From UHGV virus genome UHGV-1493261: a stretch of 64,000 bases of DNA; one strand, written 5' to 3'. Under the pieces are notes generated by a model that did no database searches, was not told where the DNA came from, and saw only the letters and a program-made list of their open reading frames with translations. Positions 438-59,024 of this stretch are shown in pieces. The position numbers and the translations under genes were made by a program. Every line of letters starts with the position of its first letter. Position 1 is the stretch's first letter. This DNA comes from a virus.

Positions 438-453
438 AAATAATTCAATAAAA

Positions 454-470
454 GGGGCTTTCGCCCCTTT
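454..470 (+). terminator. Rho-independent terminator-like hairpin (GGGGC-tttc-GCCCC + TTT)
   Basis: 5-6 bp GC stem read at 454-467, short T run; sits after the stop at 437. Confidence 0.45.
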
Positions 471-496
471 ACTTCTTCAATATCCTTCCCTATACT
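468..496 (+). promoter_or_regulatory. sigma70-like early promoter: -35 TTTACT, 17-nt spacer, -10 TATACT
   Basis: Hexamers and 17-nt spacing read directly; same architecture recurs at 7135, 14183 and 33188. Confidence 0.5.
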
Positions 497-523: not shown

Positions 524-548
524 TTGAAAAGCAGGAACTATATCATGA
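524..548 (+). promoter_or_regulatory. Conserved translation-initiation box TTGAAAAGCAGGAACTATATCATGA
   Basis: Near-identical to 14242-14265; related boxes at 7200-7238, 33227-33262 and 54408-54437 (minus). Confidence 0.4.
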
Positions 549-862
549 CACAACTCAAGAACTTCACAGCCGATGACATGTTTGCCTTCCAGGGTGCTGA
601 GCACTTTGCTGACGGCTCCGTACCTCGCATCTACTACTTCTCCGACGAAGAGATGGAAGCGTTCTTCGACCTGATGGAAAAGGACTACGAACCAGGCGAC
701 TTCGTTTATATCATCCATCACGCTGAAGGACTGACCTTGGGTTGGACGGCCAACAACGAACCAGAAGAAGTAAACTTCCCTGAAGGTATCATGTCAGAGC
801 GCGTCGAATATCTACTGGAAGCCCTGGACCCCACACCCTCCCGCTCTGGGCGATGTCTGTAG
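545..862 (+). CDS. hypothetical early protein (105 aa)
   Basis: ATG at 545 with AGGA 8 nt upstream; the track's TTG start at 524 is probably an extension. Confidence 0.5.
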   Translation: MTQLKNFTADDMFAFQGAEHFADGSVPRIYYFSDEEMEAFFDLMEKDYEPGDFVYIIHHAEGLTLGWTANNEPEEVNFPEGIMSERVEYLLEALDPTPSRSGRCL

Positions 863-954: not shown

Positions 955-3669
955 ATGTCAAAGCTAAGTTTCCTCCAGTTCATGCAGGAAAGAGATCAGT
1001 TGGACGAAGCGTTCAACTCCGCTCCGTATGAGCTGACTATGGGTAAGAAGAACGCAGGCGATGTGTTCTTCACCTTCGTCGACGAAGATGAAAAGGAATA
1101 CCGTATTCAGTTCTATACCCCTCAGGGGCTGGGCAAGAGCGTTCGTCAGGTTTTCATCGGTCAGAAGCGCGGCTCCGTCTATCCTGACGCCATCGCTCGC
1201 TTCAAGAACCCAATGCGCGTTATCGCTTCCATGATCGAAGCGACCAAACAATTCATGGCGACTCCTCTGGGCAAGACCATCGATGGCTTTGCTGTCAACT
1301 TCTCGAAGAAAGCGCTGGATCGCGGTATGACCCTAATTCCTAAGATCATCCGCCAGTCCGGCCTGAAACAAAAACTGAATGTCATGGACCTGACCTACGC
1401 GCCTGTCCCTGACCGTGGTTATGTGTGGCTGGTCCGCAAGGGTAAAGATCCGGCTCAGGTATTCGACGGTCCGAAGATGCAGGGTATCACCTGGGATGAT
1501 CCAGACAAGGTCGGCGACGTTCCGGTTCAGAATAATACTTCGGATGTGGGAGTTGGGGCTGGTTCTTCTGAAATCGAAGTCAACCGCGAGTGGTACAACA
1601 GCTCGGACACTGGTCTGGAGTTGAAGAGCGGGCGAGACCCGATTCGTGGAAACTACGTCCGCCTGATAAGCGGTTCGAAAGAAGTAGCCGCATTCTATGG
1701 TTATGATTTTGACAAATATCCAGACGGGACTGAGGTATCTTGGAATATGAAGCGCGGCTTCACCAACCAAGACTTGGTCGGTGCGTCCATGACCAAACAG
1801 AAGAAAGGCATGTACGATCAGTACACTTTCAAGAAAGGTGCTCAGATAATTCTGGTGGTGGACGTTGACACCAGCAATGACACCAGCAATGACACCAGCA
1901 ATGACAACGGTTGGAAACTCACAAAAGCCGATGCCACTCAACCAATGTTAGTATGGGCGGGGAAAGAAAAAGGTCGCTTAGTCACGGCAAATATCGCTCC
2001 CCACTACAATGAGCCGGGCGTGTATGTTGGCGCATACATGAATGAGAAACCTGTGCGTGGGCAAAGTGCTGATTTCATTGCTCGTCAGTTGAAATTACCA
2101 CAAGTCCCTATCAGTATCCTGAATGATTTCACCACGGCGTCCACAAAATTTTGGAAAGGTTCTCAGCAGAAGTCCGCGCCAGCTGACTCTAACACCACAA
2201 TCGGGGCAACCAGTATCGATCAATTGCGTGACAGCGGTTTCATCGCTCGTGTTCTGGGTATCATTGATGCCAACATTGACCAGAAAGCAAGCCATCTCCC
2301 AGGGGAAAGCATTAAGAAGATCGGACAGGCACGTTATCAAACTAAAGGTGGTCTGGTGATCATCGTCAGCTTCGATTCAGTCGATGGCAAGAATCTGACC
2401 TACAACGTGTTCTCTGAAATCGAAACTCAGCCTGGTGTCATCTCTGGCGATGCTCGTCTGGTGGCAAACAAAATCATGGAAACGATCACACACGTGGCCA
2501 AACATCAGTACACTGGCAAATGGGAAATTAGCGCAGTGCCAACAAGCGCTCCATACCCTATCAAAGCCATTCGCCGTTCTCGGGGCTGGGGTTATGTGGA
2601 AACCGCAAACTGGACTCTGAAAGTGTCCGACGCTGTCCTGAATCGTGTGAAGCCAGGGAACACTGCTCTGCTGGAACTCATCAAAGAACCTCCTCGTGGC
2701 AAGCACCTGCTGGTAATCATCCCAGAGAAGGGCGACAAGACCCTGATGCTGAAAGATCGTATTAGCGGGGCCATCTATGGTTCTATCGACCTGAATGCCC
2801 AGGGTGCTGATATGGTCAACTCTGGAACCCTGAAGATGCCACGCAACGCCATGGTGTTTGGCGAGACTGTCAACGGTATGTCTATCACTTGGTCTGGAAT
2901 CAATTTCCCGAAAACTGGGAAGTATGATGGTGCTGTATTGACCACGAATGTGACCTATTACTACGACAAAGGAAAAGTCGCGTTCACACCGATGATCTCC
3001 CAGAAAGGGCGGCTGCTGAACAATCCGAAGACATATGAACTTCCTTTGAATAAAGACATTGTTCAGGCATTGATCGATGAAATTTCTTCTAAAATGGAAA
3101 TGATATCTCGGAATATGCAAACTCTGAAAAGCACGTCGCATAATCCGAAACAAGTATTTTTGGACGACATTTCTGTTGACAACAACGGTTCAGTCCTTTG
3201 GCGCGGGTACGACATGGCGGATCGCCGCACTAATGATTTTATGTTGGGTATCCTGTCCAAAGAAACCGAGAGACTGGAGAAAGAGTCGAGTACTGCGAAG
3301 AAGACTGGTGCCGACCTTGCGGCATACGCCGACTCCATCCGCGACAACGCACCAAAAGGTCGCGACCTGGATTGGCAGATCTATGCAAGCCGTGATGGTC
3401 AGACTCTGAACGTGGACTGGGATATCACCTTCCGCCGCAACACAACTGAAGGGGCATATCGCGAGTTCAAAGCTCAGATTGACCGCGCCAACCAGTACCT
3501 GCAGACTCTGTACCGGGATGCGAAGTCCAAGGGTTACAACCCGACTGAACCAAACCTGATGACTCTGGCTAGCGCCCAGCAGTCTGACCAGTGGTCACAA
3601 GACAACGGGGAAAGCGCATACAGCGAGTACGAGCAGTCCCTGGGTGGAAACATGCAGATCAAGATCTGA
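955..3669 (+). CDS. large hypothetical protein (904 aa) with internal DTSN x3 repeat
   Basis: Long uninterrupted ORF with SD CAGGAG; no family motif recognised. Confidence 0.6.
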   Translation: MSKLSFLQFMQERDQLDEAFNSAPYELTMGKKNAGDVFFTFVDEDEKEYRIQFYTPQGLGKSVRQVFIGQKRGSVYPDAIARFKNPMRVIASMIEATKQFMATPLGKTIDGFAVNFSKKALDRGMTLIPKIIRQSGLKQKLNVMDLTYAPVPDRGYVWLVRKGKDPAQVFDGPKMQGITWDDPDKVGDVPVQNNTSDVGVGAGSSEIEVNREWYNSSDTGLELKSGRDPIRGNYVRLISGSKEVAAFYGYDFDKYPDGTEVSWNMKRGFTNQDLVGASMTKQKKGMYDQYTFKKGAQIILVVDVDTSNDTSNDTSNDNGWKLTKADATQPMLVWAGKEKGRLVTANIAPHYNEPGVYVGAYMNEKPVRGQSADFIARQLKLPQVPISILNDFTTASTKFWKGSQQKSAPADSNTTIGATSIDQLRDSGFIARVLGIIDANIDQKASHLPGESIKKIGQARYQTKGGLVIIVSFDSVDGKNLTYNVFSEIETQPGVISGDARLVANKIMETITHVAKHQYTGKWEISAVPTSAPYPIKAIRRSRGWGYVETANWTLKVSDAVLNRVKPGNTALLELIKEPPRGKHLLVIIPEKGDKTLMLKDRISGAIYGSIDLNAQGADMVNSGTLKMPRNAMVFGETVNGMSITWSGINFPKTGKYDGAVLTTNVTYYYDKGKVAFTPMISQKGRLLNNPKTYELPLNKDIVQALIDEISSKMEMISRNMQTLKSTSHNPKQVFLDDISVDNNGSVLWRGYDMADRRTNDFMLGILSKETERLEKESSTAKKTGADLAAYADSIRDNAPKGRDLDWQIYASRDGQTLNVDWDITFRRNTTEGAYREFKAQIDRANQYLQTLYRDAKSKGYNPTEPNLMTLASAQQSDQWSQDNGESAYSEYEQSLGGNMQIKI
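1867..1902 (+). repeat. perfect 12-bp tandem repeat x3 (GACACCAGCAAT), in frame, encoding DTSN-DTSN-DTSN
   Basis: Three identical adjacent copies read directly. Confidence 0.9.
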
Positions 3670-3725: not shown

Positions 3726-4031
3726 ATGAAACCGTTTATCGAATATTTTAAAGAACAAGCCGCTAAACCTCAGACCCATGCTGGTGTCCAGGGTAAGACC
3801 GTATCCATCACCAAGCAAGCTGACGGCACCCAGTGGTGTTCCGGCGCTACCGTGACCCAGATCACTCCTGACAATCAGGCGGATGTCTACAACCTGGAGT
3901 TAACCAACGGCAACACCATCAAGGTGAAGCTGACCCCAGACCAGACTCACGGTATCTCCCAAGGTCAGGAAGTCGTTGCTGTCCATGACGGTTTCGAATT
4001 CTTCTTTGGCAAGCCTGCCGACAAAGACTAA
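3726..4031 (+). CDS. hypothetical late protein (101 aa)
   Basis: ORF with SD GAGGAG; preceded by a late promoter. Confidence 0.55.
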   Translation: MKPFIEYFKEQAAKPQTHAGVQGKTVSITKQADGTQWCSGATVTQITPDNQADVYNLELTNGNTIKVKLTPDQTHGISQGQEVVAVHDGFEFFFGKPADKD

Positions 4032-4062
4032 GTGAAACCATCAAGATGACTCTTGATCATAA

Positions 4063-4516: not shown

Positions 4517-5128
4517 ATGAGCAAAATCTTTATCCCGTCACACCGCGAAGGATGTGAAATCGCGGCCAACTACCTGCGCGGTCGCATGAACTGCGGCGCT
4601 GTCTTCATCGAGCCAAATTCGTTTGACAACAAAGAATCACCTGATGCCATCGGGTTCCGTTCCGGCGGTTGCTCTATCCTGATGGAAGTGAAGGTGTCTC
4701 GCTCTGATTTCCTTACCGACAAGAAGAAGCCTCATCGCATGGATCCGACGACGGGCATGGGCGCATACCGCTTTTATGTCTGCCCTCAGGACGTGATCAG
4801 GGTTGAAGACCTACCACCGAAGTGGGGGCTGTTCTACTTCACACCCCGCAAGTCCCTGATGCCAGTTCATGTGCCAGACATGCGGTACTCTTTATTGTCA
4901 TCACCAGATCATTATCAGAAGTACCTTGATGAACAGATCAAGAGAGGAAGAACCGTTACTCGGCATATGCGCAGCTACATGGAACTCCTCGAAGGCTTCG
5001 CCCACTTTGAGCGCAACACTGCCGGGGAGCAGAATATCCTGTATGGGGCTTGGCGCCAACTGTGTATAGCTCAAAGTCGTGGTGTAGACTATACTGTGAC
5101 CGAAGTGTTCCAGAGGCCGAAGATCTAA
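4517..5128 (+). CDS. putative PD-(D/E)xK-type nuclease
   Basis: Motif sPDaigf...ilmEvKvS; ATG at 4517 with SD AAAGGAAAGGA; stop overlaps the next start (TAATG). Confidence 0.4.
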   Translation: MSKIFIPSHREGCEIAANYLRGRMNCGAVFIEPNSFDNKESPDAIGFRSGGCSILMEVKVSRSDFLTDKKKPHRMDPTTGMGAYRFYVCPQDVIRVEDLPPKWGLFYFTPRKSLMPVHVPDMRYSLLSSPDHYQKYLDEQIKRGRTVTRHMRSYMELLEGFAHFERNTAGEQNILYGAWRQLCIAQSRGVDYTVTEVFQRPKI

Positions 5129-5784
5129 TGAACTATCAAAAAATTCATGACGCTATAATAACCAGAGCCAGGGATAGAATTTTAACTGGTTACAAGGAAA
5201 AACACCACGTCATCCCTCTATCTCTTGGTGGTGAAGACAGGAACTACAATAAAGTTTCTCTCACAGCATCTGAACATTATATTATTCATCTTCTGTTGGC
5301 AAAAATTCACGGCGGGGTAATGGTCAGCGCATTTAAAAAGATGCGCCACTTGACCTCTAATCCTCCAAACAATAAAGAATTTGCCGCCAGGAGGGAATTG
5401 TTGTGTACGACAGCCGGAGAGAAAGCGAAAGATCCACAAAAACGGAAAAATCATTCTCTGAAAATGAAGGGTAGAAACCATACAGAATCTACCAAATTGT
5501 CAATATCTAATTCCATGACTGGGGAGAATAACCCAATGAAGGGGATACCTGCATGGAGGAATCCGACCAACATCAGCCGAGGAACCCATAAAAATTGGTT
5601 GGCGGCTGGAGAAATTTATGACTTGTACATCACAGGGAAATTTTTAAGAGTTATCGACCTCTTCAATGCTTGCAAATTGCCGACATCATACGGAACGGTT
5701 TCCACCATAAAAACAAAATTGGAATTGGGTTGGAAACCAAGGAAAGACGCGGATTGGTTGCAATTCTATGAGGAACACAAATGA
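5128..5784 (+). CDS. HNH homing endonuclease (free-standing)
   Basis: Motif HHVIPLSLGGEDRNYNKVSLTASEHYIIH; visibly AT-richer than neighbours; translationally coupled on both sides. Confidence 0.7.
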   Translation: MNYQKIHDAIITRARDRILTGYKEKHHVIPLSLGGEDRNYNKVSLTASEHYIIHLLLAKIHGGVMVSAFKKMRHLTSNPPNNKEFAARRELLCTTAGEKAKDPQKRKNHSLKMKGRNHTESTKLSISNSMTGENNPMKGIPAWRNPTNISRGTHKNWLAAGEIYDLYITGKFLRVIDLFNACKLPTSYGTVSTIKTKLELGWKPRKDADWLQFYEEHK

Positions 5785-7134: not shown

Positions 7135-7163
7135 TTTACTATTCAATAATAGCGCACTATTAT
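7135..7163 (+). promoter_or_regulatory. sigma70-like early promoter: -35 TTTACT, 17-nt spacer, -10 TATTAT, AT-rich upstream region
   Basis: Direct read; A/T tract 7095-7130 upstream. Confidence 0.55.
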
Positions 7164-7199
7164 AATTCACATAGGGCGGTAACACACCGCCGAATGAAA

Positions 7200-7238
7200 G
7201 TGAAACGCACCAACTACATTATGAGGAATTACATCATG
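7200..7238 (+). promoter_or_regulatory. Conserved translation-initiation box, tandem ACTACATyATG copies
   Basis: caACTACATTATGAGGaattACATCATGg. Confidence 0.4.
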
Positions 7239-7724
7239 GCTACTACCAAAACTCTGATCACCAACGGCACCATCTCTTTCGAACTGAACACCGAAGTTGC
7301 TAAAGTTGAAATGTTCCGCATAGCTCAGGCAGCTGGCTTCACTGGTGGCAAAACTTCCTTCATGAACCTACTGAACGGTAAAGTGAAAGCGACTAACGGC
7401 TTCACCCTGGTAGAGCAGGTTGTGGTTGATAAAGCTGTGGTTGCTAAGACTGCCGACAAAGTTGGTATGCTGAAAAGCCTGGGCCACGACATCCGCATTG
7501 TCGAAGCAAACACCGAAACTTACGGCACCATCGTAGTCGGTAAAGGTCGCATCCAGCTGAACCCGCTGAACAACGGTTCCTTCTCTGTGATGGTCTTCCC
7601 TAAGAAGGGCTACGACAACACCGACATCGTGAAAGCTGCTGGTGGCGAAGCAAAAGCTCAGTACGTCAAAATGGGTAAACTGAGCGCCGACGCAGTTGAA
7701 GCTCTGGTGAGCAAACTGGCGTAA
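7236..7724 (+). CDS. hypothetical early protein (162 aa), probably highly expressed
   Basis: ATG at 7236 with GAGG 9 nt upstream; strong promoter and terminators on both sides. Confidence 0.55.
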   Translation: MATTKTLITNGTISFELNTEVAKVEMFRIAQAAGFTGGKTSFMNLLNGKVKATNGFTLVEQVVVDKAVVAKTADKVGMLKSLGHDIRIVEANTETYGTIVVGKGRIQLNPLNNGSFSVMVFPKKGYDNTDIVKAAGGEAKAQYVKMGKLSADAVEALVSKLA

Positions 7725-12803: not shown

Positions 12804-12818
12804 AATCAGGAAAGAAAC

Positions 12819-14156: not shown

Positions 14157-14164
14157 CAAGCCAA

Positions 14165-14185
14165 AGCCCCTCATTGAGGGGCTTT
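14165..14185 (+). terminator. terminator hairpin AGCCCCTC-att-GAGGGGCT
   Basis: Perfect 8-bp stem. Confidence 0.55.
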
Positions 14186-14211
14186 ACTTCTATAATCCCT
14201 GCGCTTATACT
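14183..14211 (+). promoter_or_regulatory. sigma70-like early promoter: -35 TTTACT, 17-nt spacer, -10 TATACT
   Basis: Same architecture as 468-496. Confidence 0.5.
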
Positions 14212-14241: not shown

Positions 14242-14265
14242 TTGAAAGCGGGAACTATATCATGA
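14242..14265 (+). promoter_or_regulatory. Conserved translation-initiation box TTGAAAGCGGGAACTATATCATGA
   Basis: Near-identical to 524-548. Confidence 0.4.
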
Positions 14266-14723
14266 CAAACAAAGTACTCACCAACCCACTGCACAACTTC
14301 GGTTACATTCAACTCCCTCTGGTGATCGACACCCTGTACGCCGACGACAAAGAAGAGATCTGCTGGTCACCCACCGCACTGATTGAACGCGAAATCTTCA
14401 AGTCTGTTGTTGATGTCATGTTCCGTATCGGTCGCAATGGACCTCTGGTCTACCTCGGCAAGGTGACTGAGTTGAAGACAAGCCACAACGAACGCTTCCT
14501 TCGTATCGATACAACGGGGTGCTCTCAGCAGGACTTCAACACACTACGTAACTATGTACTGATCAACCGTCCGGTCAGCCAGCACCGCCCGTACCTGACG
14601 TCAATGCACATCGACAATTTCATCACCGACGTGCACCTCCGCGCCGAAACCCTTCATGAAGAGGAAACAGGCCGAGCTATCGACACAGTCTTAAATATGG
14701 TTGTGATCACCCTGGCGGAGTAG
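14262..14723 (+). CDS. hypothetical early protein (153 aa)
   Basis: ORF preceded by the promoter cassette. Confidence 0.5.
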   Translation: MTNKVLTNPLHNFGYIQLPLVIDTLYADDKEEICWSPTALIEREIFKSVVDVMFRIGRNGPLVYLGKVTELKTSHNERFLRIDTTGCSQQDFNTLRNYVLINRPVSQHRPYLTSMHIDNFITDVHLRAETLHEEETGRAIDTVLNMVVITLAE

Positions 14724-29594: not shown

Positions 29595-30664
29595 TGGACC
29601 GCATGCTGAAGGTTGCTAAGAAACACGATGACCAGGCTTCAGTGCTGTCCCAATCAGACGCTCTGGAACCGTCTATCATCTGTTCTACTGGTATTCCCCT
29701 GATCGACATCGCATGGTCTGGGCGTATTGACGGCGGCCTGATCTCCGGTATCAAGATGATGGTGGGTGATTCCCGTACCTTCAAAACGATGTTCGGTCTG
29801 GTGGACGTCAAGGCGTACATGGACAAGTTCCCTGACGCTATCTGTGTATTTGCTGACTCGGAAAAGGGTGCCAACGCCGATTACTGGACCTCTATGGGCA
29901 TTGACATGGACCGCGTCCTGTACGTACCGATCGACAACGTTGAACAGACCAAGATCCGCTTGCTGCAGATCCTACAGGAAGTCAAGAAAGGCGACCATGT
30001 TATAATCTTCATCGACTCTATCAGCCAACTTCCCTCCACCAAGGAAGTTGAAGATGCGATCAAAGGGAACGACACTCAAGACATGACCCGCGCCCGTGCC
30101 CTCAACAGCTTCTGGCGTGTCATGACTCCCGAAATCAACAGCAAAAATCTCGTGTGTGTTTGGATCAACTCCTATTACGATGAGATCGGCAACCAATATG
30201 CCGAGCCTAACATCAAAGGTGGCAAACAGGGCTTCTTATCCTCCAACTTGATCTGGTTTATCACCCGTTCTCAGGTGAAGGAAGACAAAGATCTGCTGGG
30301 CTGGAACTTCAACATAAGCATCATGAAAGGTCGCCATGTCAAAGAGAAAGCCAAGCTCCCTGTGACGGTACTGTACAACGGTGGTATTGATCGCTGGAGC
30401 GGCCTGCTTGAGATCGCTCGTGCTCTGGGTTATGTTGATATGCCGTCTTCCGGCTGGTATGTGCGTACAGCCAAGGGTGGTTTCGATCCTGAGAAGGAAA
30501 AGAAATATCAGAAGCGTCAGATGGGTGATGATTTCTGGTATCCGCTGCTGGAGAATGTCAACTTCGCCGATGACGTGAAGAAAATGTTCGGTGTTTCTAA
30601 CGGTACTGTTATGCCTGCTAACATGCTGGAGCAAATGGACCATGTTATTAACACAAGCGAATAA
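29579..30664 (+). CDS. uvsX: RecA-like recombinase UvsX
   Basis: Extensive match to my recollection of T4 UvsX (GGLISGI, DSEKGANADYWTSMGID, FIDSISQL, DMTRARALNSFWRVMTP, GGIDRWSGLLE). Confidence 0.85.
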   Translation: MASSLMDRMLKVAKKHDDQASVLSQSDALEPSIICSTGIPLIDIAWSGRIDGGLISGIKMMVGDSRTFKTMFGLVDVKAYMDKFPDAICVFADSEKGANADYWTSMGIDMDRVLYVPIDNVEQTKIRLLQILQEVKKGDHVIIFIDSISQLPSTKEVEDAIKGNDTQDMTRARALNSFWRVMTPEINSKNLVCVWINSYYDEIGNQYAEPNIKGGKQGFLSSNLIWFITRSQVKEDKDLLGWNFNISIMKGRHVKEKAKLPVTVLYNGGIDRWSGLLEIARALGYVDMPSSGWYVRTAKGGFDPEKEKKYQKRQMGDDFWYPLLENVNFADDVKKMFGVSNGTVMPANMLEQMDHVINTSE

Positions 30665-33132: not shown

Positions 33133-33150
33133 ATCAATAGAACACCAAGA

Positions 33151-33175
33151 AGCCCAGTCAAGTACTGGGCTTTTT
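33151..33175 (+). terminator. terminator hairpin AGCCCAGT-caagt-ACTGGGCT + TTTTT
   Basis: Perfect 8-bp stem plus T5. Confidence 0.7.
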
Positions 33176-33187
33176 AACTTCAATAAC

Positions 33188-33216
33188 TTTACTTTCAAGA
33201 AATAATCGCCTAATAT
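33188..33216 (+). promoter_or_regulatory. sigma70-like early promoter: -35 TTTACT, 17-nt spacer, -10 TAATAT
   Basis: Same architecture as 468, 7135 and 14183. Confidence 0.5.
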
Positions 33217-33226
33217 TTAATCTGTA

Positions 33227-33262
33227 TTGAAGAGTTACAACTACATCATGAGGCTGGAAATG
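33227..33262 (+). promoter_or_regulatory. Conserved translation-initiation box TTGAAGAGTTACAACTACATCATGAGGCTGGAAATG
   Basis: Shares AACTACATCATGA.GCTG...ATGAACGT with the minus-strand box at 54408-54437. Confidence 0.4.
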
Positions 33263-34453
33263 AACGTCAAAACATTCAATATTCCGATCGACAATGAAGG
33301 GTTGGTAGTTGAGCGACTGAAGAAGCTCGAGCGCACTGCCGAAAGGTTGGGTGTTCCGTTTCCGACTGTGACTTATGGTGAACCCTTCAAAACCCACACC
33401 CGCGACTTCACTGGTGAGATCCTTACTCACTGGTGGAAACCTGTCACTCTCGAAGGCGAAGGCATTGACCACCCCATCTCTTATGGTGGCTGGAAGATCA
33501 TCGGTCAGTTCAATCACGAATATCCAAAGGTTATTCTTAACCGCCTGTCCGACAACATCAATCCTGACTTCATCCGTCGCTTCGAGACAGAGAACGTCTC
33601 TTGGTGTCAGCATTGCAATCTAGCCATCCGTCGCAAGAACACGTATGTGATTGAAAATGAGGAAACGCATACCCAGATGCTGATTGGTAGCACCTGTATG
33701 CATCATTATGTGCCTCATCAGAAATCGCTTGACGCGATTATGTCTTACTATCTGGAAATCCAAGAGTTCTTCATGCCAGACGAGGACGACCCAGAGGGTA
33801 TATATCGCGTCCAAAATGAGCGCTTCACCGACACCCACAGTTACCTGCGCGCATGCTTCCAGGTGATGCTGGCAGGCGTGGATATCAAGTCTGAACTGTT
33901 TGACAAAGTACTGGGCTATGTCCGGTCTCATCAGAAACCAAAAGCAGGTTCCGATGAAGAGTATTTCGTAAACAAGGCACACGAATACCGTGAAGATGCC
34001 GAGTCGGAAATGTACCATATGAAGCTTTTCATCAGTGCGCTGTCCGAATCTAATGAGTTCAATGTTCGCCTGAAACGCATGTGTGAACCCGGCTATCACC
34101 TCATCAAGGATAACAACACAGTCTGCTGGGGTGCCAAGAAGTATTACGATTACATCCATCGTCCTCGTACTGACCGCAAGGCGGAGAACAAATGGGTGGG
34201 TGAAGTCAGTGAAATGCTGGAAGTGCAAGTCAGATTCGACAAGCGCACCTTCCTCTTCTCCAATGAATATGGTGATAGTTACCTGTTTACTTTCAAAACA
34301 GCAGAAGGCAATACAATTACCTGGAAGACCTCTTATATGGATACAGAGTTCTTGCAGGGCGATATGATCATCCGTGGTCGTGTCAAAGAACTGACTGAGT
34401 ACAACGGCGTTAAACAAACTCAGGTCACCAGAGCCAAATTGAGGAAATTATGA
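33260..34453 (+). CDS. hypothetical early protein (397 aa) with Cys/His cluster
   Basis: ATG at 33260 with GAGG 6 nt upstream; CQHCN...STCMH. Confidence 0.5.
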   Translation: MNVKTFNIPIDNEGLVVERLKKLERTAERLGVPFPTVTYGEPFKTHTRDFTGEILTHWWKPVTLEGEGIDHPISYGGWKIIGQFNHEYPKVILNRLSDNINPDFIRRFETENVSWCQHCNLAIRRKNTYVIENEETHTQMLIGSTCMHHYVPHQKSLDAIMSYYLEIQEFFMPDEDDPEGIYRVQNERFTDTHSYLRACFQVMLAGVDIKSELFDKVLGYVRSHQKPKAGSDEEYFVNKAHEYREDAESEMYHMKLFISALSESNEFNVRLKRMCEPGYHLIKDNNTVCWGAKKYYDYIHRPRTDRKAENKWVGEVSEMLEVQVRFDKRTFLFSNEYGDSYLFTFKTAEGNTITWKTSYMDTEFLQGDMIIRGRVKELTEYNGVKQTQVTRAKLRKL

Positions 34454-34565
34454 ATTTGATTGAGTTTGTTCTGAAGTCGTTCGCCTTTGGTCTGATAGCA
34501 TGTGGGATGATTACAGCTATGCTTCTCGTCATAGCCCTGGTCATCCCCTTTAAGAGGAAATAGAG

Positions 34566-34766
34566 ATGAAACGTGAAATCATGGATGTGTACGAGCCAGG
34601 ATCTTGTTGTCCTGGCCATGACAAGTATCCATCCGATACTTACAAGAATCGACGTTCCAAAGCGCAACGCTCCAAGAGCATTAAGAAGGAGCATCGCCAC
34701 GCTCGTCGTGTCAAGCGTCTGGGGCTGAAATCTGACCTGAATACCATTACGCGGGAGGACTTTTGA
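34566..34766 (+). CDS. small basic protein
   Basis: ORF with SD AAGAGGAAA; Lys/Arg-rich. Confidence 0.4.
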   Translation: MKREIMDVYEPGSCCPGHDKYPSDTYKNRRSKAQRSKSIKKEHRHARRVKRLGLKSDLNTITREDF

Positions 34767-45003: not shown

Positions 45004-45333
45004 TCAGAGATAAGATTTACCGAGTTCGGTCAGGCGATAGAACGTCACCTCAGTGTTCGGCCAGTTCACGTAAGAACCGTCATGAACCATTGAGCCAGCT
45101 GGTTCAATCAACCCTTTGGACAACAGGGAAGCCCCAGTGCGGGGGTTGCCTTTGACGGAGGTGAAACCACCAGCGTTCGGGCATACCTGGAACGTCCAGA
45201 CGGTGTTGCCCTTGTCATTGGTCCAGGATTTGGGATGAAAGTACCATTCACCATAACGGCAATGACCTTTCTCAAAGTTCAACATTCCTAAAAGGACGCA
45301 GAGTTGATGTCCTGTGATGCGTGGCTTTTTCAT
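45004..45333 (-). CDS. hypothetical protein (109 aa)
   Basis: ORF. Confidence 0.4.
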   Translation of the reverse strand: MKKPRITGHQLCVLLGMLNFEKGHCRYGEWYFHPKSWTNDKGNTVWTFQVCPNAGGFTSVKGNPRTGASLLSKGLIEPAGSMVHDGSYVNWPNTEVTFYRLTELGKSYL

Positions 45334-45530
45334 GACAATACTCCTTTCAGAGCTAAAACGGAAAGCACACCAATAATCAACACAATCGGCCTGATATAAT
45401 AACCCGTTTTAGTTTGCTTCAAGATACATGGAGAGGAGAAGCGCAGATATGGATCCCCTTTCCGGTAGCCTGTGATTGTAACCTTCTGCACTTTATAAGG
45501 CACTTTTTGACCAGAAAAATAAATTTTCAT
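45330..45530 (-). CDS. small hypothetical protein
   Basis: ORF. Confidence 0.3.
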
Positions 45531-46795: not shown

Positions 46796-47424
46796 CCCAC
46801 AACCTCCAGTCCCATCAGATCTTCCATGGTCTTCTGAATACGCAGCCAGTCAAGCGCAGCGTCATAACGAGGGTCGTGATAGACCATACCTTCCAGTTCC
46901 CACGCCTTGATGCCAGCATACCGATCCTGCTGTCCAACACCCTTCAGCCAACTCACGATGTCGAACGTGTGGTGGTAATCCCATGGCTCGTTGGAGTCCT
47001 GCTTACACGTCACTTCAATGATGTGCTGAGCCTTGCGTAGATCGAACAAGTTACGGTCACACCAGTCAACCGAGCGCGGGTCTACCCCAAGACGATGACA
47101 ACCCTTGCGGATTTCATCGGCCAATTGGAAGATAGAGATGTCATCTTCCTTGGGATACAGACTGACGGCGCGAGCCGCATCACACGGGTTGCGCTTGCCC
47201 GTGCCCAGCCACCATTCAACTGTCCCAGCGTCCTTCACGCGACCAAGTTCGAGCTGCTCTTTGACATTCAGCTTAATGAACGTCGTGCGCTCCTCAACCA
47301 GCTGCTGAAGAGTATAACGCTTGGTCAGGTCGGCGATGGTGTGTGCCCAAGACAGCATGACTGCATCATCCCAGCGCCCCAGGGTTTCGCTGTCGGCCAC
47401 AGCCAAAAAATTTGATTTATACAT
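46792..47424 (-). CDS. DEDD-family 3'-5' exonuclease (DexA-like)
   Basis: Exo I-like ADSET and Exo III-like YHDPRYDA. Confidence 0.5.
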   Translation of the reverse strand: MYKSNFLAVADSETLGRWDDAVMLSWAHTIADLTKRYTLQQLVEERTTFIKLNVKEQLELGRVKDAGTVEWWLGTGKRNPCDAARAVSLYPKEDDISIFQLADEIRKGCHRLGVDPRSVDWCDRNLFDLRKAQHIIEVTCKQDSNEPWDYHHTFDIVSWLKGVGQQDRYAGIKAWELEGMVYHDPRYDAALDWLRIQKTMEDLMGLEVVG

Positions 47425-47668
47425 GTTTATTCTCCCAACACTTTATTTTGGCTTTTACTGTATAATAATTTTCATCAATGAACTTTTTGTTGACGCGCTT
47501 AATTTCTATCTCTGGGCAAAGTAACCCTATAGTTTCCCTCAAAATCTGGCTCACCCTGGCCTGTGAAATACAATAAATTTCTGATACTTCTTTCGAACTA
47601 GATCCAGACATGACAAGTTTTAGAATATTGACCTTTTTATAAAATTCTTGATCAAACGCGCATATCAT
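47417..47668 (-). CDS. small sigma-70 region-4-like HTH protein
   Basis: EVSEIYCISQARVSQILRETI resembles sigma region 4.2; the gene is strongly AT-rich. Confidence 0.4.
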   Translation of the reverse strand: MICAFDQEFYKKVNILKLVMSGSSSKEVSEIYCISQARVSQILRETIGLLCPEIEIKRVNKKFIDENYYTVKAKIKCWENKHV

Positions 47669-47671
47669 TAT

Positions 47672-53355: not shown

Positions 53356-53937
53356 TTATAGACCAAATTTGCTGCGCCACTTTTCAACCTTGTGTTCAAT
53401 AGCGTGCTCCACTTTAATGCGAGTGGCCATCAAAGAGGAGCCACGGATCGCCCCTTCCCCACACCCCATGCGCGCAGCATGCTTGATTAGGTCATTGACA
53501 AGATGATCCAATCTGTCTTGACTGCGATAAGGCTGGTTGCACAATCGGATAATCCGGCCATGATAATGATGGATAAGATTCAGATGCTTTTGAGGATCAC
53601 GATCAATCAGACGGAACCAGTCTTCTTCCAACAGATTAGAAGAAATATCGTTCACCGTCGCCATGTGGTTGATGACAGAGTCGATCATTTCGACCTTGTT
53701 CAGAGAGCCGCGCATTTGGACGTCGTCATAATCCATGACGTACATAAGGTCAATGGCAGAGATAATGACATCAGCAACTTCGCCATTCAACGGCTCGGAA
53801 GATGCTATGCCATGAAACACATCAGACAGTTCACAGATCTCTTCACCTAGTTTGTTCAGAACAAACACAGGCGAACGGTCTGGGGTATGAGCAGTGCAGT
53901 CATAAGAAGTGTCGACGATAGTGTGTAGAAATTTCAT
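53356..53937 (-). CDS. MazG-like nucleotide pyrophosphohydrolase (tentative)
   Basis: EExxE-like LGEEICELSDV and EVADVIISAID. Confidence 0.35.
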   Translation of the reverse strand: MKFLHTIVDTSYDCTAHTPDRSPVFVLNKLGEEICELSDVFHGIASSEPLNGEVADVIISAIDLMYVMDYDDVQMRGSLNKVEMIDSVINHMATVNDISSNLLEEDWFRLIDRDPQKHLNLIHHYHGRIIRLCNQPYRSQDRLDHLVNDLIKHAARMGCGEGAIRGSSLMATRIKVEHAIEHKVEKWRSKFGL

Positions 53938-54422
53938 TTCAAAGTTCCTTGTATGCGGAGACGATTAATGTGGGCAATGATATAGTCCATAGAGTTTTGA
54001 AAACTGTATTTCCCGTTCCGAACATATGCATGGATCAGGGGTAGGCGACTGTAAGCCAATCTGATCTTCAGACGTTCAGGCATTGTCTGGAGTTTCATGC
54101 TAGTTGCAAATAGGATATTGCGCTTGAATTCTTCGGTAGACGGGTCCAGGACAATGACGCGGGAAGCCGCCAATCCCTGTCCATATTGCTTGGCCTCATA
54201 ACCGTCGAGCAGGCGCAGGTTGTCATCCCTATACTTCAGCCAATACCAGTACCCCTCCATGGAGTTAAACACACCATGTTCATGGGTAGTCATTGGATGA
54301 TGGGTAAAATGCGAGAGGAAGCGCCCGAGTTCCGTCTGGCTCCGGCTGTAGATGTTGAAGTGATTCTTACCCTCTGTTGCAGGGGTCATCTTGTTCTGTG
54401 GAACGTTCATTAACAGCATCAT
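53934..54422 (-). CDS. hypothetical protein
   Basis: ORF whose start region carries the conserved box; start at 54422, 54419 or 54410. Confidence 0.45.
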   Translation of the reverse strand: MMLLMNVPQNKMTPATEGKNHFNIYSRSQTELGRFLSHFTHHPMTTHEHGVFNSMEGYWYWLKYRDDNLRLLDGYEAKQYGQGLAASRVIVLDPSTEEFKRNILFATSMKLQTMPERLKIRLAYSRLPLIHAYVRNGKYSFQNSMDYIIAHINRLRIQGTLK

Positions 54423-54437
54423 GATGTAGTTTCTCAA
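54408..54437 (-). promoter_or_regulatory. Conserved translation-initiation box (minus strand) TTGAGAAACTACATCATGATGCTGTTAATGAACGT
   Basis: Shares ACTACATCATGA.GCTG...ATGAACGT with 33227-33262. Confidence 0.4.
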
Positions 54438-54464
54438 ATCAAAGTATTGCTGTGTGCAGCCAGT

Positions 54465-57427: not shown

Positions 57428-58993
57428 TTACTTGTACAGACCTGTCACGTCAATAGACTTGTGCTGGCGATTGTACTCAGCAGTGTAGTCATCCAACACC
57501 AGGTATTCACAGCAGCGGATTTTGCTTGAACCAAAATCATCGGTGACCGACACGATGTCACGCGGGTTCAGCTTACAGCGAACGACACGCTGTCCCACAG
57601 AACCGAAACACTCCTTCAGGTAGGCCAGGGAGCAAACGTGCAAACCGTATGAACACAGGTCAGAGTTGTTGTCGTTCACGAATGAGCGAGCCATCCGCAC
57701 GATAGTGCCTGGGGCGTTGCTGATCGTGTTGCTGTGCTTGTCCATGTAGTTGCCGCGCACCGATTTGTAGAGGATGATGTCACCATCGTCGTCAATTTCG
57801 ATGTCAGAGTACGCCATGAACTCATAGATGCGCCCGGACTGAACCAGAGAAGCTGACGGGTTCTGGAACATTTTGTCCATAAACTTCGCCATGCGGTCCA
57901 GATTGTGGAAGTCACCCTTCAGCATCAGCGCCAGTACACGCTTGGCGATGGATGTGCCTGTGATGTCATGACCGGACCAGCGGACACGGTTGTCAGACAC
58001 GTCTACCAGACCAGCAGCGTACTTCGCGATGGCTTCACGAGGTCGCATCAGCGAGTAGGCCAGCTTCACGTCTTTGTCTTTGATCGCCTGTACGATGCGG
58101 TCGTAGGCCGGGTGTGAAGTGGTGATCGTTTCCGGCTTACCGTCAATCGCGATAACAACGCTGTCAGGCAGAATCAGGATCTGGTGTTCGTTCAGGAACA
58201 CGTCCAGGTCTTTCGCACCGAAGTCCTGCTTGGTCTTCTTGTCATCAGCCACTTCTTCAACGTCTTTGACAGCGACGGTGAATTCTACAGAAGACAGAGC
58301 CAGACGCAGGGTGCGACCGAGGATGCCATCAAAGTAACCAACACGGCGACGGGCATCCAAGGATCCACGGATAGGATAGGTTTCCCCGTCAACCACAACG
58401 CTGATTTCAACGTTACTCGGAACTTTGTCCGCACCTTCTGACAGTGCCACAGAAATTTCTGCCATCTCGCCGATAGCTTCAACATCGAAAGCGCGACTAT
58501 CACCTTCCACAGGAGTCAATTCAGACTTTTCAAAGAAAGCCCCTTTGAAATTGCCGTCGTTAGTGAGACACAGATACTTGTTGTGGTTCGGCAGATATGC
58601 CCCAACATACCATTCTGTGCCATCTTTGTCTTTGGCCGTGCCGCCCGGTTGGACCTCGAATACTTCCTGCTCTTCCGGCTTGATAGGAGAGATCACAGTT
58701 ACCTTGTTTTTCTCCTCGGTAATCCGGACCAACAGGGCACGGGCGATCGTCTTGGCTGACACACCGTACACCTTGGCCAAGAATGCATTGCTGACATTAC
58801 CTGCCGCCGAATCCCTTTGGATATTGGCGATCTGATCTGTTGTCAGGGATTTCAGCGAAGTAGGGTCAACACCGAGTTCCGTGTCGGAAACACGTTGTAC
58901 AGTCGAGCGGGGTATGCCCAACAGAGTAGCAATTGCGCTCTGGCTTTTGCCTTCCTTCAAATACTTCAGGATCTTTTCGTCAATCTTGTTCAT
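57428..58993 (-). CDS. rIIB: rIIB-like protein
   Basis: C-terminus CSYGLHVCSLAYLK..FGS...RVVRCKLNPRDIVSV matches my recollection of T4 rIIB; N-terminal HTH; probable start at 58993. Confidence 0.75.
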   Translation of the reverse strand: MNKIDEKILKYLKEGKSQSAIATLLGIPRSTVQRVSDTELGVDPTSLKSLTTDQIANIQRDSAAGNVSNAFLAKVYGVSAKTIARALLVRITEEKNKVTVISPIKPEEQEVFEVQPGGTAKDKDGTEWYVGAYLPNHNKYLCLTNDGNFKGAFFEKSELTPVEGDSRAFDVEAIGEMAEISVALSEGADKVPSNVEISVVVDGETYPIRGSLDARRRVGYFDGILGRTLRLALSSVEFTVAVKDVEEVADDKKTKQDFGAKDLDVFLNEHQILILPDSVVIAIDGKPETITTSHPAYDRIVQAIKDKDVKLAYSLMRPREAIAKYAAGLVDVSDNRVRWSGHDITGTSIAKRVLALMLKGDFHNLDRMAKFMDKMFQNPSASLVQSGRIYEFMAYSDIEIDDDGDIILYKSVRGNYMDKHSNTISNAPGTIVRMARSFVNDNNSDLCSYGLHVCSLAYLKECFGSVGQRVVRCKLNPRDIVSVTDDFGSSKIRCCEYLVLDDYTAEYNRQHKSIDVTGLYK

Positions 58994-59024
58994 CTTGTAG
59001 TTCCCACGTTGGTTAACAGGACTA

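What the first reader, a model, noticed from the sequence alone, without database searches (positions are those of the whole stretch)
524..548. Conserved translation-initiation box spanning the start codon of at least five genes
The element AACTAyATCATGA, often preceded by TTGAAA about 20 nt upstream, occurs at 524-548, 14242-14265, 7200-7238 (two tandem copies), 33227-33262 and 54408-54437 (minus). The last two additionally share ATGA.GCTG...ATGAACGT. The encoded proteins are unrelated, so conservation is at the RNA/DNA level and extends beyond a generic SD. It could be an operator for a translational repressor (as RegA is for T4 early mRNAs), an RNase processing site, or a recombination hotspot.
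Basis: seen in the sequence. Interest (0 to 1): 0.6.

Follow-up and report, generated by a model that had tools for sequence, protein, structure and literature searches.

The report
Shared start-codon box of early phage genes
A group of unrelated small early genes in this Ackermannviridae phage share a nearly identical ribosome-binding stretch across the start codon. It is the downstream end of a repeated terminator-promoter-leader cassette, at which gene cassettes have been gained or lost between related phages.

Summary
AACTAYATCATGA occurs 5 times in the window with at most 1 mismatch, against 0.19 expected, always at a translation start region.

The window is an Agtrevirus-like Ackermannviridae phage. 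In the complete relative Ag3, 15 of the 16 best-scoring box+ATG sites among 5839 ATGs are annotated start codons. The 9-mer without ATG occurs only at chance level. The same box is present in Kuttervirus CBA120, is degenerate in Erwinia phage Bue1, and is absent from 50 kb of a distant Vibrio phage.

The box is a weak SD, a fixed 9-nt spacer, AUG and usually AC. TTGAA usually lies about 20 nt upstream. It follows early promoters (TTTACW-N17-TAnnnT) that have adjacent hairpins. Box start regions have weaker SD pairing and less structure than other start regions.

This anatomy matches the PeSL cassettes of T4-type phages, which have not been described in this family.

Three gene-cassette indels between relatives are bounded by two box copies, with the junction inside the box. 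However, boxes are not statistically richer in breakpoints than other gene starts.

A RegA homologue exists, but the TIRs of genes 44, 45, 62 and regA lack the box, so the operator idea stays untested. Verdict: a new variant of a known kind, of moderate interest.

The parts
451..470 (+). Site 1: G+C-rich stem-loop directly upstream of and overlapping the -35 hexamer
   Evidence: Folds at -13.5 kcal/mol, z -4.2, 0 of 200 shuffles as good
468..496 (+). Site 1: sigma70-type early promoter, TTTACT-17-TATACT
   Evidence: Promoter scan and regex scan
524..548 (+). Site 1: TTGAAA, weak SD (AGGA at 533-536), box AACTATATCATGA at 536-548, start codon at 545
   Evidence: The start maps to Ag3 orf00111
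545..862 (+). Site 1 gene, 105 aa, unknown function (phrog_9866)
7135..7163 (+). Site 2: early promoter, TTTACT-17-TATTAT
7175..7191 (+). Site 2: stem-loop in the leader, downstream of the -10
   Evidence: Leader fold -16.5 kcal/mol, hairpin GGGCGG...CCGCCC
7212..7239 (+). Site 2: two tandem boxes. AACTACATTATGA has no SD, and its ATGAGGA supplies the SD for the second box, AATTACATCATGG. The start annotated in Ag3 is at 7236
   Evidence: The sequence is identical in Ag3 and CBA120
7236..7724 (+). Site 2 gene, 162 aa, unknown function (phrog_3764)
14163..14185 (+). Site 3: stem-loop overlapping the -35
   Evidence: -16.6 kcal/mol, z -4.3
14183..14211 (+). Site 3: early promoter, TTTACT-17-TATACT
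14243..14265 (+). Site 3: TTGAAA, GGG, box AACTATATCATGA, start codon at 14262
14262..14723 (+). Site 3 gene, 153 aa, unknown function (phrog_3902). In L009 and CBA120 an extra small gene sits between this box and this gene
33147..33175 (+). Site 4: terminator-like stem-loop followed by a T run
   Evidence: -16.8 kcal/mol, z -5.5
33188..33216 (+). Site 4: early promoter, TTTACT-17-TAATAT
33227..33262 (+). Site 4: TTGAAG, box AACTACATCATGA (33239-33251) with no SD in front, then ATGAGG as SD for the annotated start at 33260. This box is probably vestigial or uORF-like
   Evidence: Ag3 has lost the box here, and in CBA120 the box ATG is out of frame
33260..34453 (+). Site 4 gene, 397 aa, unknown function (phrog_2319)
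54419..54443 (-). Site 5: TTTGATTTGAGA plus box AACTACATCATGA, start codon at 54422. The intergenic space is 42 nt and holds no canonical promoter
53934..54422 (-). Site 5 gene, 162 aa, unknown function (phrog_652)
58990..59002 (-). Partial box AACTACAAGATGA (11 of 13) at the rIIB start codon (58993)
   Evidence: The same 9-mer is conserved at rIIB of Ag3 and CBA120 while the flanks differ

Best explanation
The box is the downstream module of a repeated early-gene expression cassette of enterobacterial Ackermannviridae. The cassette is analogous to the PeSL (promoter-early stem-loop) cassettes of T4-type phages.

A full cassette reads: G+C-rich hairpin, then a sigma70-type promoter (TTTACW-N17-TAnnnT), then a leader of 25-45 nt. 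The leader ends in TTGAA, about 7 nt, (A)GG, AACTAYATC, AUG and AC. The TTGAA-to-AUG part also occurs alone in front of internal genes.

On the mRNA it serves as the ribosome binding site of small genes of unknown function. These are mostly the first genes of early transcripts. It represents a distinct class of start site with a weak SD, an A/U-rich spacer and little local structure.

Because the same 15-25 nt are repeated in front of many unrelated genes, they also provide short homology. Gene cassettes have been deleted, inserted or exchanged at this homology between related phages. That exchange, together with selection for expression, keeps the copies alike.

Shown here: the link to start codons and early promoters, the family-wide distribution, the weak-SD and low-structure character, and box-bounded cassette indels. 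Inferred: that the box itself raises or tunes translation, that recombination (not only selection on the survivors) places the junctions there, and that no dedicated binding factor is needed.
For: - **Tied to start codons.** 5 hits against 0.19 expected in the window. In Ag3, 15 of the 16 ATGs with spacer score of at least 10 are annotated starts, out of 5839 ATGs of which 205 are annotated starts. In CBA120, 10 of the 13 top hits are annotated starts (tables). The 9-mer without ATG is at chance level.
- **Not the generic SD.** 83 window starts show only G-richness at -11..-8 and no spacer consensus.
- **Cassette anatomy.** TTTACT-17-TAnnnT promoters lie 24-44 nt upstream of sites 1-4. Hairpins overlap or adjoin them, with z scores of -4.2 to -5.5. 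In Ag3 a strict early promoter lies within 120 nt of 7 of 15 box starts against 3 of 201 others (p=2e-7). TTGAA at -27..-14 is found at 8 of 15 against 6 of 201.
- **Whole promoter-leader-box units are paralogous.** For example, Ag3 64827 and 100472 are 76-87% identical over about 95 nt.
- **Start-site class.** SD duplex energy is -4.7 against -6.1 kcal/mol (p=1.5e-4). Local fold energy is -4.7 against -8.05 kcal/mol (p=3e-5). The leaders have no conserved fold.
- **Box-bounded indels.** A 298-bp orf00112 cassette is present in Ag3 and absent from the window, with the junction inside AGGAACTA. A 245-bp orf096-like cassette lies between two boxes in L009 and is also present in CBA120. It is absent from the window, Ag3, L007, L008, L010 and L011. 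The crossover points differ between L010 and L011. A 149-bp ORF lies between two AGGACTATATCATGA copies in CBA120, against one copy in Ag3.
- **Known precedent.** PeSLs are defined as a stem-loop plus early promoter, with the SD and start codon at the 3' end. T4/PST promoters follow TTTACW-N17-TAYWAT, and crossovers have been mapped between the -10 and the ATG (PMC2839356, PMC4122927).
Against: - **No excess of breakpoints.** Breaks in Ag3-CBA120 similarity at the start region are not more frequent at box genes (8/15) than at other genes (86/201, p=0.30).
- **Junctions at SD or ATG are general.** Single-gene indels without a box also end exactly at the SD or ATG. Junctions there may simply reflect which recombinants survive.
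- **Orthologous boxes are not unusually conserved.** Ag3 and CBA120 differ at 17 of 99 box positions (about 83% identity, counted). The adjacent leader is about 83-100% identical.
- **Unexplained conservation.** No argument about SD strength or accessibility explains why this particular 9-nt spacer, with one consensus, is kept in two subfamilies. A binding factor would explain it more simply.
- **No expression data were found** (and 52 returned nothing relevant).
Confidence: 0.55

Rival explanations
1. The box is an RNA operator. A phage-encoded single-strand RNA-binding protein recognises UUGAA...GGAACUAYAUCAUGAC and blocks 30S binding. The protein would be the RegA homologue or an unknown early or middle protein. 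Binding would switch off the immediate-early genes together.
For: The box overlaps the AUG, is unstructured and is A/U-rich. T4 RegA sites have the same properties (PMC3014915). About 13-16 mRNAs per genome carry it. One consensus is kept in two subfamilies. Relatives encode a genuine RegA homologue that matches PDB 1REG at E=4e-26, with T18, R21 and W81 conserved. rIIB, a classical T4 RegA target, has an 11/13 box that is conserved in Ag3 and CBA120.
Against: The gene 44, 45, 62 and regA start regions do not carry the box in Ag3 or CBA120. Genes 44 and 45 are documented RegA targets in T4 and RB69 (PMC3014915), and regA autoregulation is from my own knowledge. T4 RegA sites show no clear sequence conservation (PMC3014915), unlike this box. 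Two of the five RNA-binding residues differ (K14 to G, F106 to H). Boxes at sites 2a and 4 lie upstream of the real start. No binding or expression data exist.
Confidence: 0.2
2. The box is purely a cis-acting translational enhancer: an especially good SD-spacer-AUG context. It was selected independently at each gene and has no role in recombination and no binding factor.
For: The SD is weak and local structure is low. The A/U-rich spacer keeps the register with the AUG constant.
Against: Independent selection would not be expected to produce the same 9-mer plus TTGAA plus AC at about 15 sites. Whole promoter-leader-box units are clearly paralogous. Boxes occur where their ATG is not the main start (sites 2a and 4).
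Confidence: 0.12
3. The box is a cleavage site for a phage or host endoribonuclease that processes or inactivates early mRNAs, as RegB does at GGAG in T4.
For: Its position in early-mRNA start regions is the same as that of T4 RegB sites (PMC3014915).
Against: Box start regions do not contain GGAG. Their SDs are AGGA, GGGA or GAGA. No RegB homologue is annotated in Ag3 or CBA120 (annotation tables; no search was run). No other evidence points this way.
Confidence: 0.04
4. The box is a DNA-level site: a promoter, or the operator of a transcription factor.
For: TTGAA and TAYATC loosely resemble promoter hexamers.
Against: The spacing is about 10 nt rather than 17. The '-10' lacks the invariant final T. 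A transcript would start beyond the ATG. The strict register with SD and ATG, and the strand specificity relative to the gene, argue for an RNA-level role.
Confidence: 0.03

Closest known systems
PeSL (promoter-early stem-loop) cassettes of T4-type phages: RB49/phi1, T4/PST and KVP40/nt-1 (Arbiol et al. 2010, PMC2839356; Comeau et al. 2014, PMC4122927)
   Same: Both are composite repeats of a stem-loop plus a sigma70-type early promoter, with the SD and start codon at the 3' end. The -35/-10 consensus is the same as in T4/PST (TTTACW-N17-TAYWAT). Both occur in many copies per genome in front of small genes of unknown function. Both flank indels between close relatives, with crossovers between the -10 and the ATG.
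   Different: This one is in another family (Ackermannviridae), where I found no description of it. The best-conserved part here is the SD-spacer-AUG box with its upstream TTGAA, not the promoter. The box also occurs without a promoter in front of internal genes. Mini-circle formation is untested.
RegA translational operators of T4 and RB69 (Uzan and Miller 2010, PMC3014915)
   Same: Both are unstructured A/U-rich stretches that overlap or abut the AUG of a set of mRNAs. A RegA homologue is encoded by the family. rIIB carries a partial box.
   Different: T4 and RB69 sites have no clear consensus (SELEX gave aaAAUUGUUAUGUAA and UAA repeats). This box is a sharp 13-nt consensus. It is absent from genes 44, 45, 62 and regA. 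Binding is untested.
RegB endoribonuclease sites (GGAG in the SD of T4 early mRNAs; PMC3014915)
   Same: Both are elements in the start region of early mRNAs.
   Different: The box has no GGAG, and no RegB homologue is annotated in the relatives.
Phage leader translational enhancers such as the T7 gene 10 leader (own knowledge, not tested here)
   Same: Both have an A/U-rich unstructured spacer between SD and AUG. UACAU lies just before or near the AUG in both.
   Different: The T7 element belongs to one gene. This box is a repeat shared by about 15 genes, and no enhancer activity has been measured.

Membership tests
PeSL cassette | Stem-loop (terminator or attenuator) adjacent to or overlapping the promoter | tested here: met
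   Sites 1, 3 and 4 have hairpins at 451-470, 14163-14185 and 33147-33175, with z scores of -4.2 to -5.5. Site 2 has a hairpin in the leader. Site 5 has none.
PeSL cassette | Sigma70-like early promoter (T4/PST type, TTTACW-N17-TAYWAT) | tested here: met
   Met at sites 1-4. In Ag3, 7 of 15 box starts against 3 of 201 others. Not met at site 5 or at internal box genes.
PeSL cassette | SD and start codon of the downstream gene form the 3' end of the repeat | tested here: met
PeSL cassette | Many copies per genome, next to small non-essential genes of unknown function in variable regions | tested here: met
   About 16 copies in Ag3 and 13 in CBA120. All five window genes have unknown function. 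Box genes have a median length of about 128 aa.
PeSL cassette | Indels or replacements between close relatives have their junctions in the repeat | tested here: inconclusive
   There are three clean box-bounded indels. However, there is no enrichment over other gene starts, and indels without a box also end at the SD or ATG.
PeSL cassette | Promoter and terminator activity, and mini-circle formation, shown experimentally | not testable with these tools
   Needs reporter assays and inverse PCR.
RegA operator | Overlaps or abuts the initiator AUG, is unstructured and is A/U-rich | tested here: met
RegA operator | A RegA protein is encoded by the phage | tested here: met
   Ag3 orf00162 matches PDB 1REG at E=4e-26. 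It is also annotated in CBA120 and Bue1. The gene lies outside the window.
RegA operator | Present on classical RegA targets (genes 44, 45 and rIIB; regA itself from own knowledge) | tested here: not met
   Absent from genes 44, 45, 62 and regA in Ag3 and CBA120. Only rIIB has an 11/13 match.
RegA operator | Bound by RegA, with translation repressed | not testable with these tools
   Needs binding and repression assays.
RegB cleavage site | GGAG in the SD region | tested here: not met
   Box SDs are AGGA, GGGA, GAGA or CAGG.

The most novel reading that the evidence does not exclude
The box is a portable operator. A phage factor reads the 26-nt sequence, so any gene cassette that recombines in behind a box is automatically placed under the phage's early-gene translational programme. 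This would be a plug-and-play regulon, in which one sequence serves as ribosome binding site, regulatory address and recombination joint.
Probability: 0.15. Interest if true: 0.7.

Novelty: new variant of a known kind. Interest (0 to 1): 0.4.

Why it matters
If the reading holds, Ackermannviridae organise their accessory early genes much as T4-type phages do with PeSLs. Members of this family are used in phage therapy and biocontrol (Vi01, CBA120, LIMEstone and Ag3 relatives).

The difference is that the conserved joint sits on the start codon itself. That gives three practical handles:
- a way to find early genes and correct start-codon calls in these genomes;
- a natural insertion point for engineering cassettes that would be expressed early;
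- a concrete 26-nt RNA with which to test whether the family's RegA homologue, or another factor, has a defined operator. That has never been pinned down sharply, even in T4.

If the box is only a shared ribosome binding site, it is an ordinary regulatory repeat.

Tried and rejected
- **Generic SD or spacer preference.** Rejected: 83 window starts show no spacer consensus.
- **Promoter reading of TTGAA...TAYATC.** Rejected on spacing, on the missing final T of the '-10', and because the transcript would start beyond the ATG.
- **Conserved RNA structure.** None: five leaders fold no better than shuffles around the box.
- **Antisense or sRNA copy of the box.** None: occurrences not followed by ATG are at chance level and show no notable non-coding copy.
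- **RegA regulon test.** The TIRs of genes 44, 45, 62 and regA lack the box.
- **Paralogy of the proteins.** None.
- **Genome-wide breakpoint enrichment, Ag3 against CBA120.** Not significant.
- **Distant relative.** 50 kb of Vibrio phage K352 (gp41 46% identical) has no box.
- **Literature.** The Ag3 and LIMEstone papers describe only sigma70-like, T4-like middle and late promoters and terminators. No paper in the library holds the motif string. No Ackermannviridae transcriptome study was found.
- **IMG/VR scan for GGAACTATATCATGAC.** 20 matches fall in 11 contigs of 152-162 kb, with several matches in seven of them. Another 34 are single hits in other contigs, which is about what I estimated for chance.
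- **Technical note.** Loci L003 and L004 were re-fetched as L005 and L006 because I misread how files are stored.

Full report
**What the window is.** The first 20 kb match Ackermannviridae phages: 96-97% identity to Escherichia phage YX22, Salmonella phage vB_CECAV_050 and others, and 92% to Shigella phage Ag3 (genus Agtrevirus). The window is colinear with the first 65 kb of Ag3, reversed. I rebuilt the whole Ag3 genome with its 216 annotated genes and the whole CBA120 genome (Kuttervirus, a different subfamily). I also took 100 kb of Erwinia phage Bue1 and 50 kb of a distant Vibrio phage.

**The observation.** AACTAYATCATGA is found 5 times with at most one mismatch, against 0.19 expected, and no shuffle reaches 5.
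- I mapped the Ag3 proteins onto the window. The ATG in the box is the annotated start at 545, 14262 and 54422 (minus strand).
- At 7212 and 33239 the box has no SD in front. Its ATG lies 15 and 12 nt upstream of, and in frame with, the annotated start, and its ATGAGG provides that start's SD.
- The five proteins are unrelated and of unknown function.

**More than a generic ribosome binding site.** The 83 mapped starts of the window show only G-richness at -11..-8 and no preferred spacer.
- In Ag3, a weight matrix of the nine spacer positions was scored in front of all 5839 ATGs on both strands. It gives 16 sites with a score of at least 10, and 15 of them are annotated starts. The sixteenth is an in-frame internal ATG of a small gene. 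Only 3.5% of ATGs are annotated starts.
- The 9-mer RAMTAYATC occurs 13 times without a following ATG, about the chance number. It occurs 13 times with a following ATG, against about 0.4 expected.

**Extended anatomy.** I aligned the sites of the window, Ag3 and CBA120 on the ATG. The consensus is tTGAAa.g.AGG AACTAtATC ATG ac.
- TTGAA at -27..-14 is found at 8 of 15 box starts against 6 of 201 others.
- Window sites 1-4 lie 24-44 nt downstream of TTTACT-17-TAnnnT promoters.
- In Ag3 such a promoter lies within 120 nt of 7 of 15 box starts against 3 of 201 others.
- Strong hairpins overlap or adjoin the -35 at sites 1, 3 and 4. At site 2 the hairpin lies in the leader.
- Some whole promoter-leader-box units are paralogous over about 95 nt.
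- Site 5 and several Ag3 and CBA120 sites have the TTGAA-to-ATG part only, behind an upstream gene or hairpin.

**Character of the start region.** The leaders have no shared fold, and the box is predicted to be unpaired. Compared with the other 200 Ag3 starts:
- box starts pair more weakly with the anti-SD (median -4.7 against -6.1 kcal/mol, p=1.5e-4);
- they have less local structure (-4.7 against -8.05 kcal/mol, p=3e-5);
- they have a more A/T-rich spacer.

**Distribution.** CBA120 has the same consensus at 13 top sites, 10 of which are annotated starts. Bue1 has a drifted version, CTAYAYC-ATG, with TTGAA upstream. The Vibrio phage has none. In IMG/VR the exact 16-mer GGAACTATATCATGAC gives 20 matches in 11 contigs of 152-162 kb, plus scattered single hits.

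**Recombination.** Three presence/absence differences are bounded by two copies of the box.
1. Ag3 has orf00112 between AGCAGGAACTACACCATGA and CGAAGGAACTATATCATGA. The window has one hybrid copy, AGCAGGAACTATATCATGA, and lacks the 298 bp between them.
2. An orf096-like gene of about 75 codons sits between two boxes in IMG/VR contig L009, and after the box in CBA120. It is absent from the window, Ag3, L007, L008, L010 and L011. The single boxes of L010 and L011 are different hybrids, so the crossovers were at different points.
3. CBA120 has a 149-bp ORF between two AGGACTATATCATGA copies where Ag3 has one copy.

Several orthologous promoter-leader-box units are followed by unrelated genes in Ag3 and CBA120.

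There are two cautions:
- A crude genome-wide test shows no excess of such breaks at box starts over other starts (8/15 against 86/201, p=0.30).
- Indels without a box between the window and Ag3 also end exactly at the SD or ATG.

The box is therefore demonstrably a place where cassettes have been joined. It is not shown to be a preferred one.

**Comparison with what is known.** PeSL cassettes of T4-type phages are composite repeats of a stem-loop and an early promoter that end in the SD and start codon. They are concentrated next to small genes of unknown function. They mediate deletions, insertions and mini-circles, with crossovers between the -10 and the ATG. The T4/PST promoter consensus is TTTACW-N17-TAYWAT (PMC2839356, PMC4122927). 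The anatomy here meets those features. The experimental ones cannot be tested.

The differences are the family, the sharp conservation of the spacer across the AUG together with TTGAA, and the occurrence of the box without a promoter. The Ag3 and LIMEstone genome papers do not mention the box, and no paper in the library contains the motif string.

**The operator idea.** T4 RegA binds unstructured A/U-rich stretches at the AUG of about 30 mRNAs, without a clear consensus (PMC3014915). The family encodes a genuine RegA homologue: it matches PDB 1REG at E=4e-26. T18, R21 and W81 are kept, while K14 and F106 are changed. However, genes 44, 45, 62 and regA have no box. Only rIIB has an 11/13 match, which is conserved in Ag3 and CBA120. 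I keep this as the main rival, at about 0.2. An RNase site and a DNA-level site have no support.

**Verdict.** The finding is real and extends well beyond the window. The best reading is a family-specific early-gene cassette end that serves both as a ribosome binding site and as a recombination joint: a new variant of the PeSL theme. What keeps this exact sequence conserved remains open.

Noticed in passing
window 468-485, 7135-7150, 33176-33193; also CBA120 30500-30560: The early promoters share more than the hexamers. TTTACT is followed or preceded by (C)TTCAATAA, and CBA120 has two tandem CTTTACTTCAATAAAA units upstream of the site 4 orthologue. This may be an extended -35/spacer element or a sign of slippage.
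   Followed up: partly
window 5128-5784: An ORF about 30% identical to the homing endonucleases of Ag3 sits between the orf00103 homologue and the primase gene. Ag3 has no gene there. Conversely, Ag3 has endonuclease genes (orf00096, orf00042) that the window lacks.
   Followed up: partly
window 955-3669: One 904-codon ORF covers what Ag3 annotates as three genes (orf00110, orf00110.1, orf00109). CBA120 annotates its counterpart as a possible fusion protein.
   Followed up: no
window 4026-4032, 12811-12816, 34560-34763, 45333-45527, 47424-47670: Most single-gene presence/absence differences between the window and Ag3 that lack a box also end exactly at an SD or a start codon. Cassette-like gene modularity is therefore general in this phage.
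   Followed up: partly
window 54417-54426: A perfect 10-bp palindrome, CATCATGATG, spans the start codon of site 5. This is why the motif search also reports a 2-mismatch hit on the opposite strand at 54412-54424.
   Followed up: yes
CBA120 (L012) 30449-30462, compared with window 33248-33262: At the site 4 orthologue the box ATG is 13 nt upstream of the annotated start and out of frame with it. It opens a 14-codon ORF. In the window it is in frame, and in Ag3 the box has decayed. This may be a small upstream ORF or a relic.
   Followed up: partly
CBA120 143251-143400 (L015); Ag3 102413 (L005): There are probable annotation gaps. CBA120 has an unannotated 50-codon ORF with a perfect box. In Ag3 orf00184, an in-frame internal ATG with a box suggests that the annotated start lies too far upstream.
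   Followed up: no
Ag3 135834-137688 and CBA120 134232-136403 (outside the window): About 2 kb next to the tRNA genes has no annotated gene in either genome.
   Followed up: no
window 58990-59002 (minus strand): The rIIB start has the partial box AACTACAAGATGA. The 9-mer is identical in Ag3 and CBA120 although the sequence upstream differs. rIIB is a classical RegA target in T4.
   Followed up: partly
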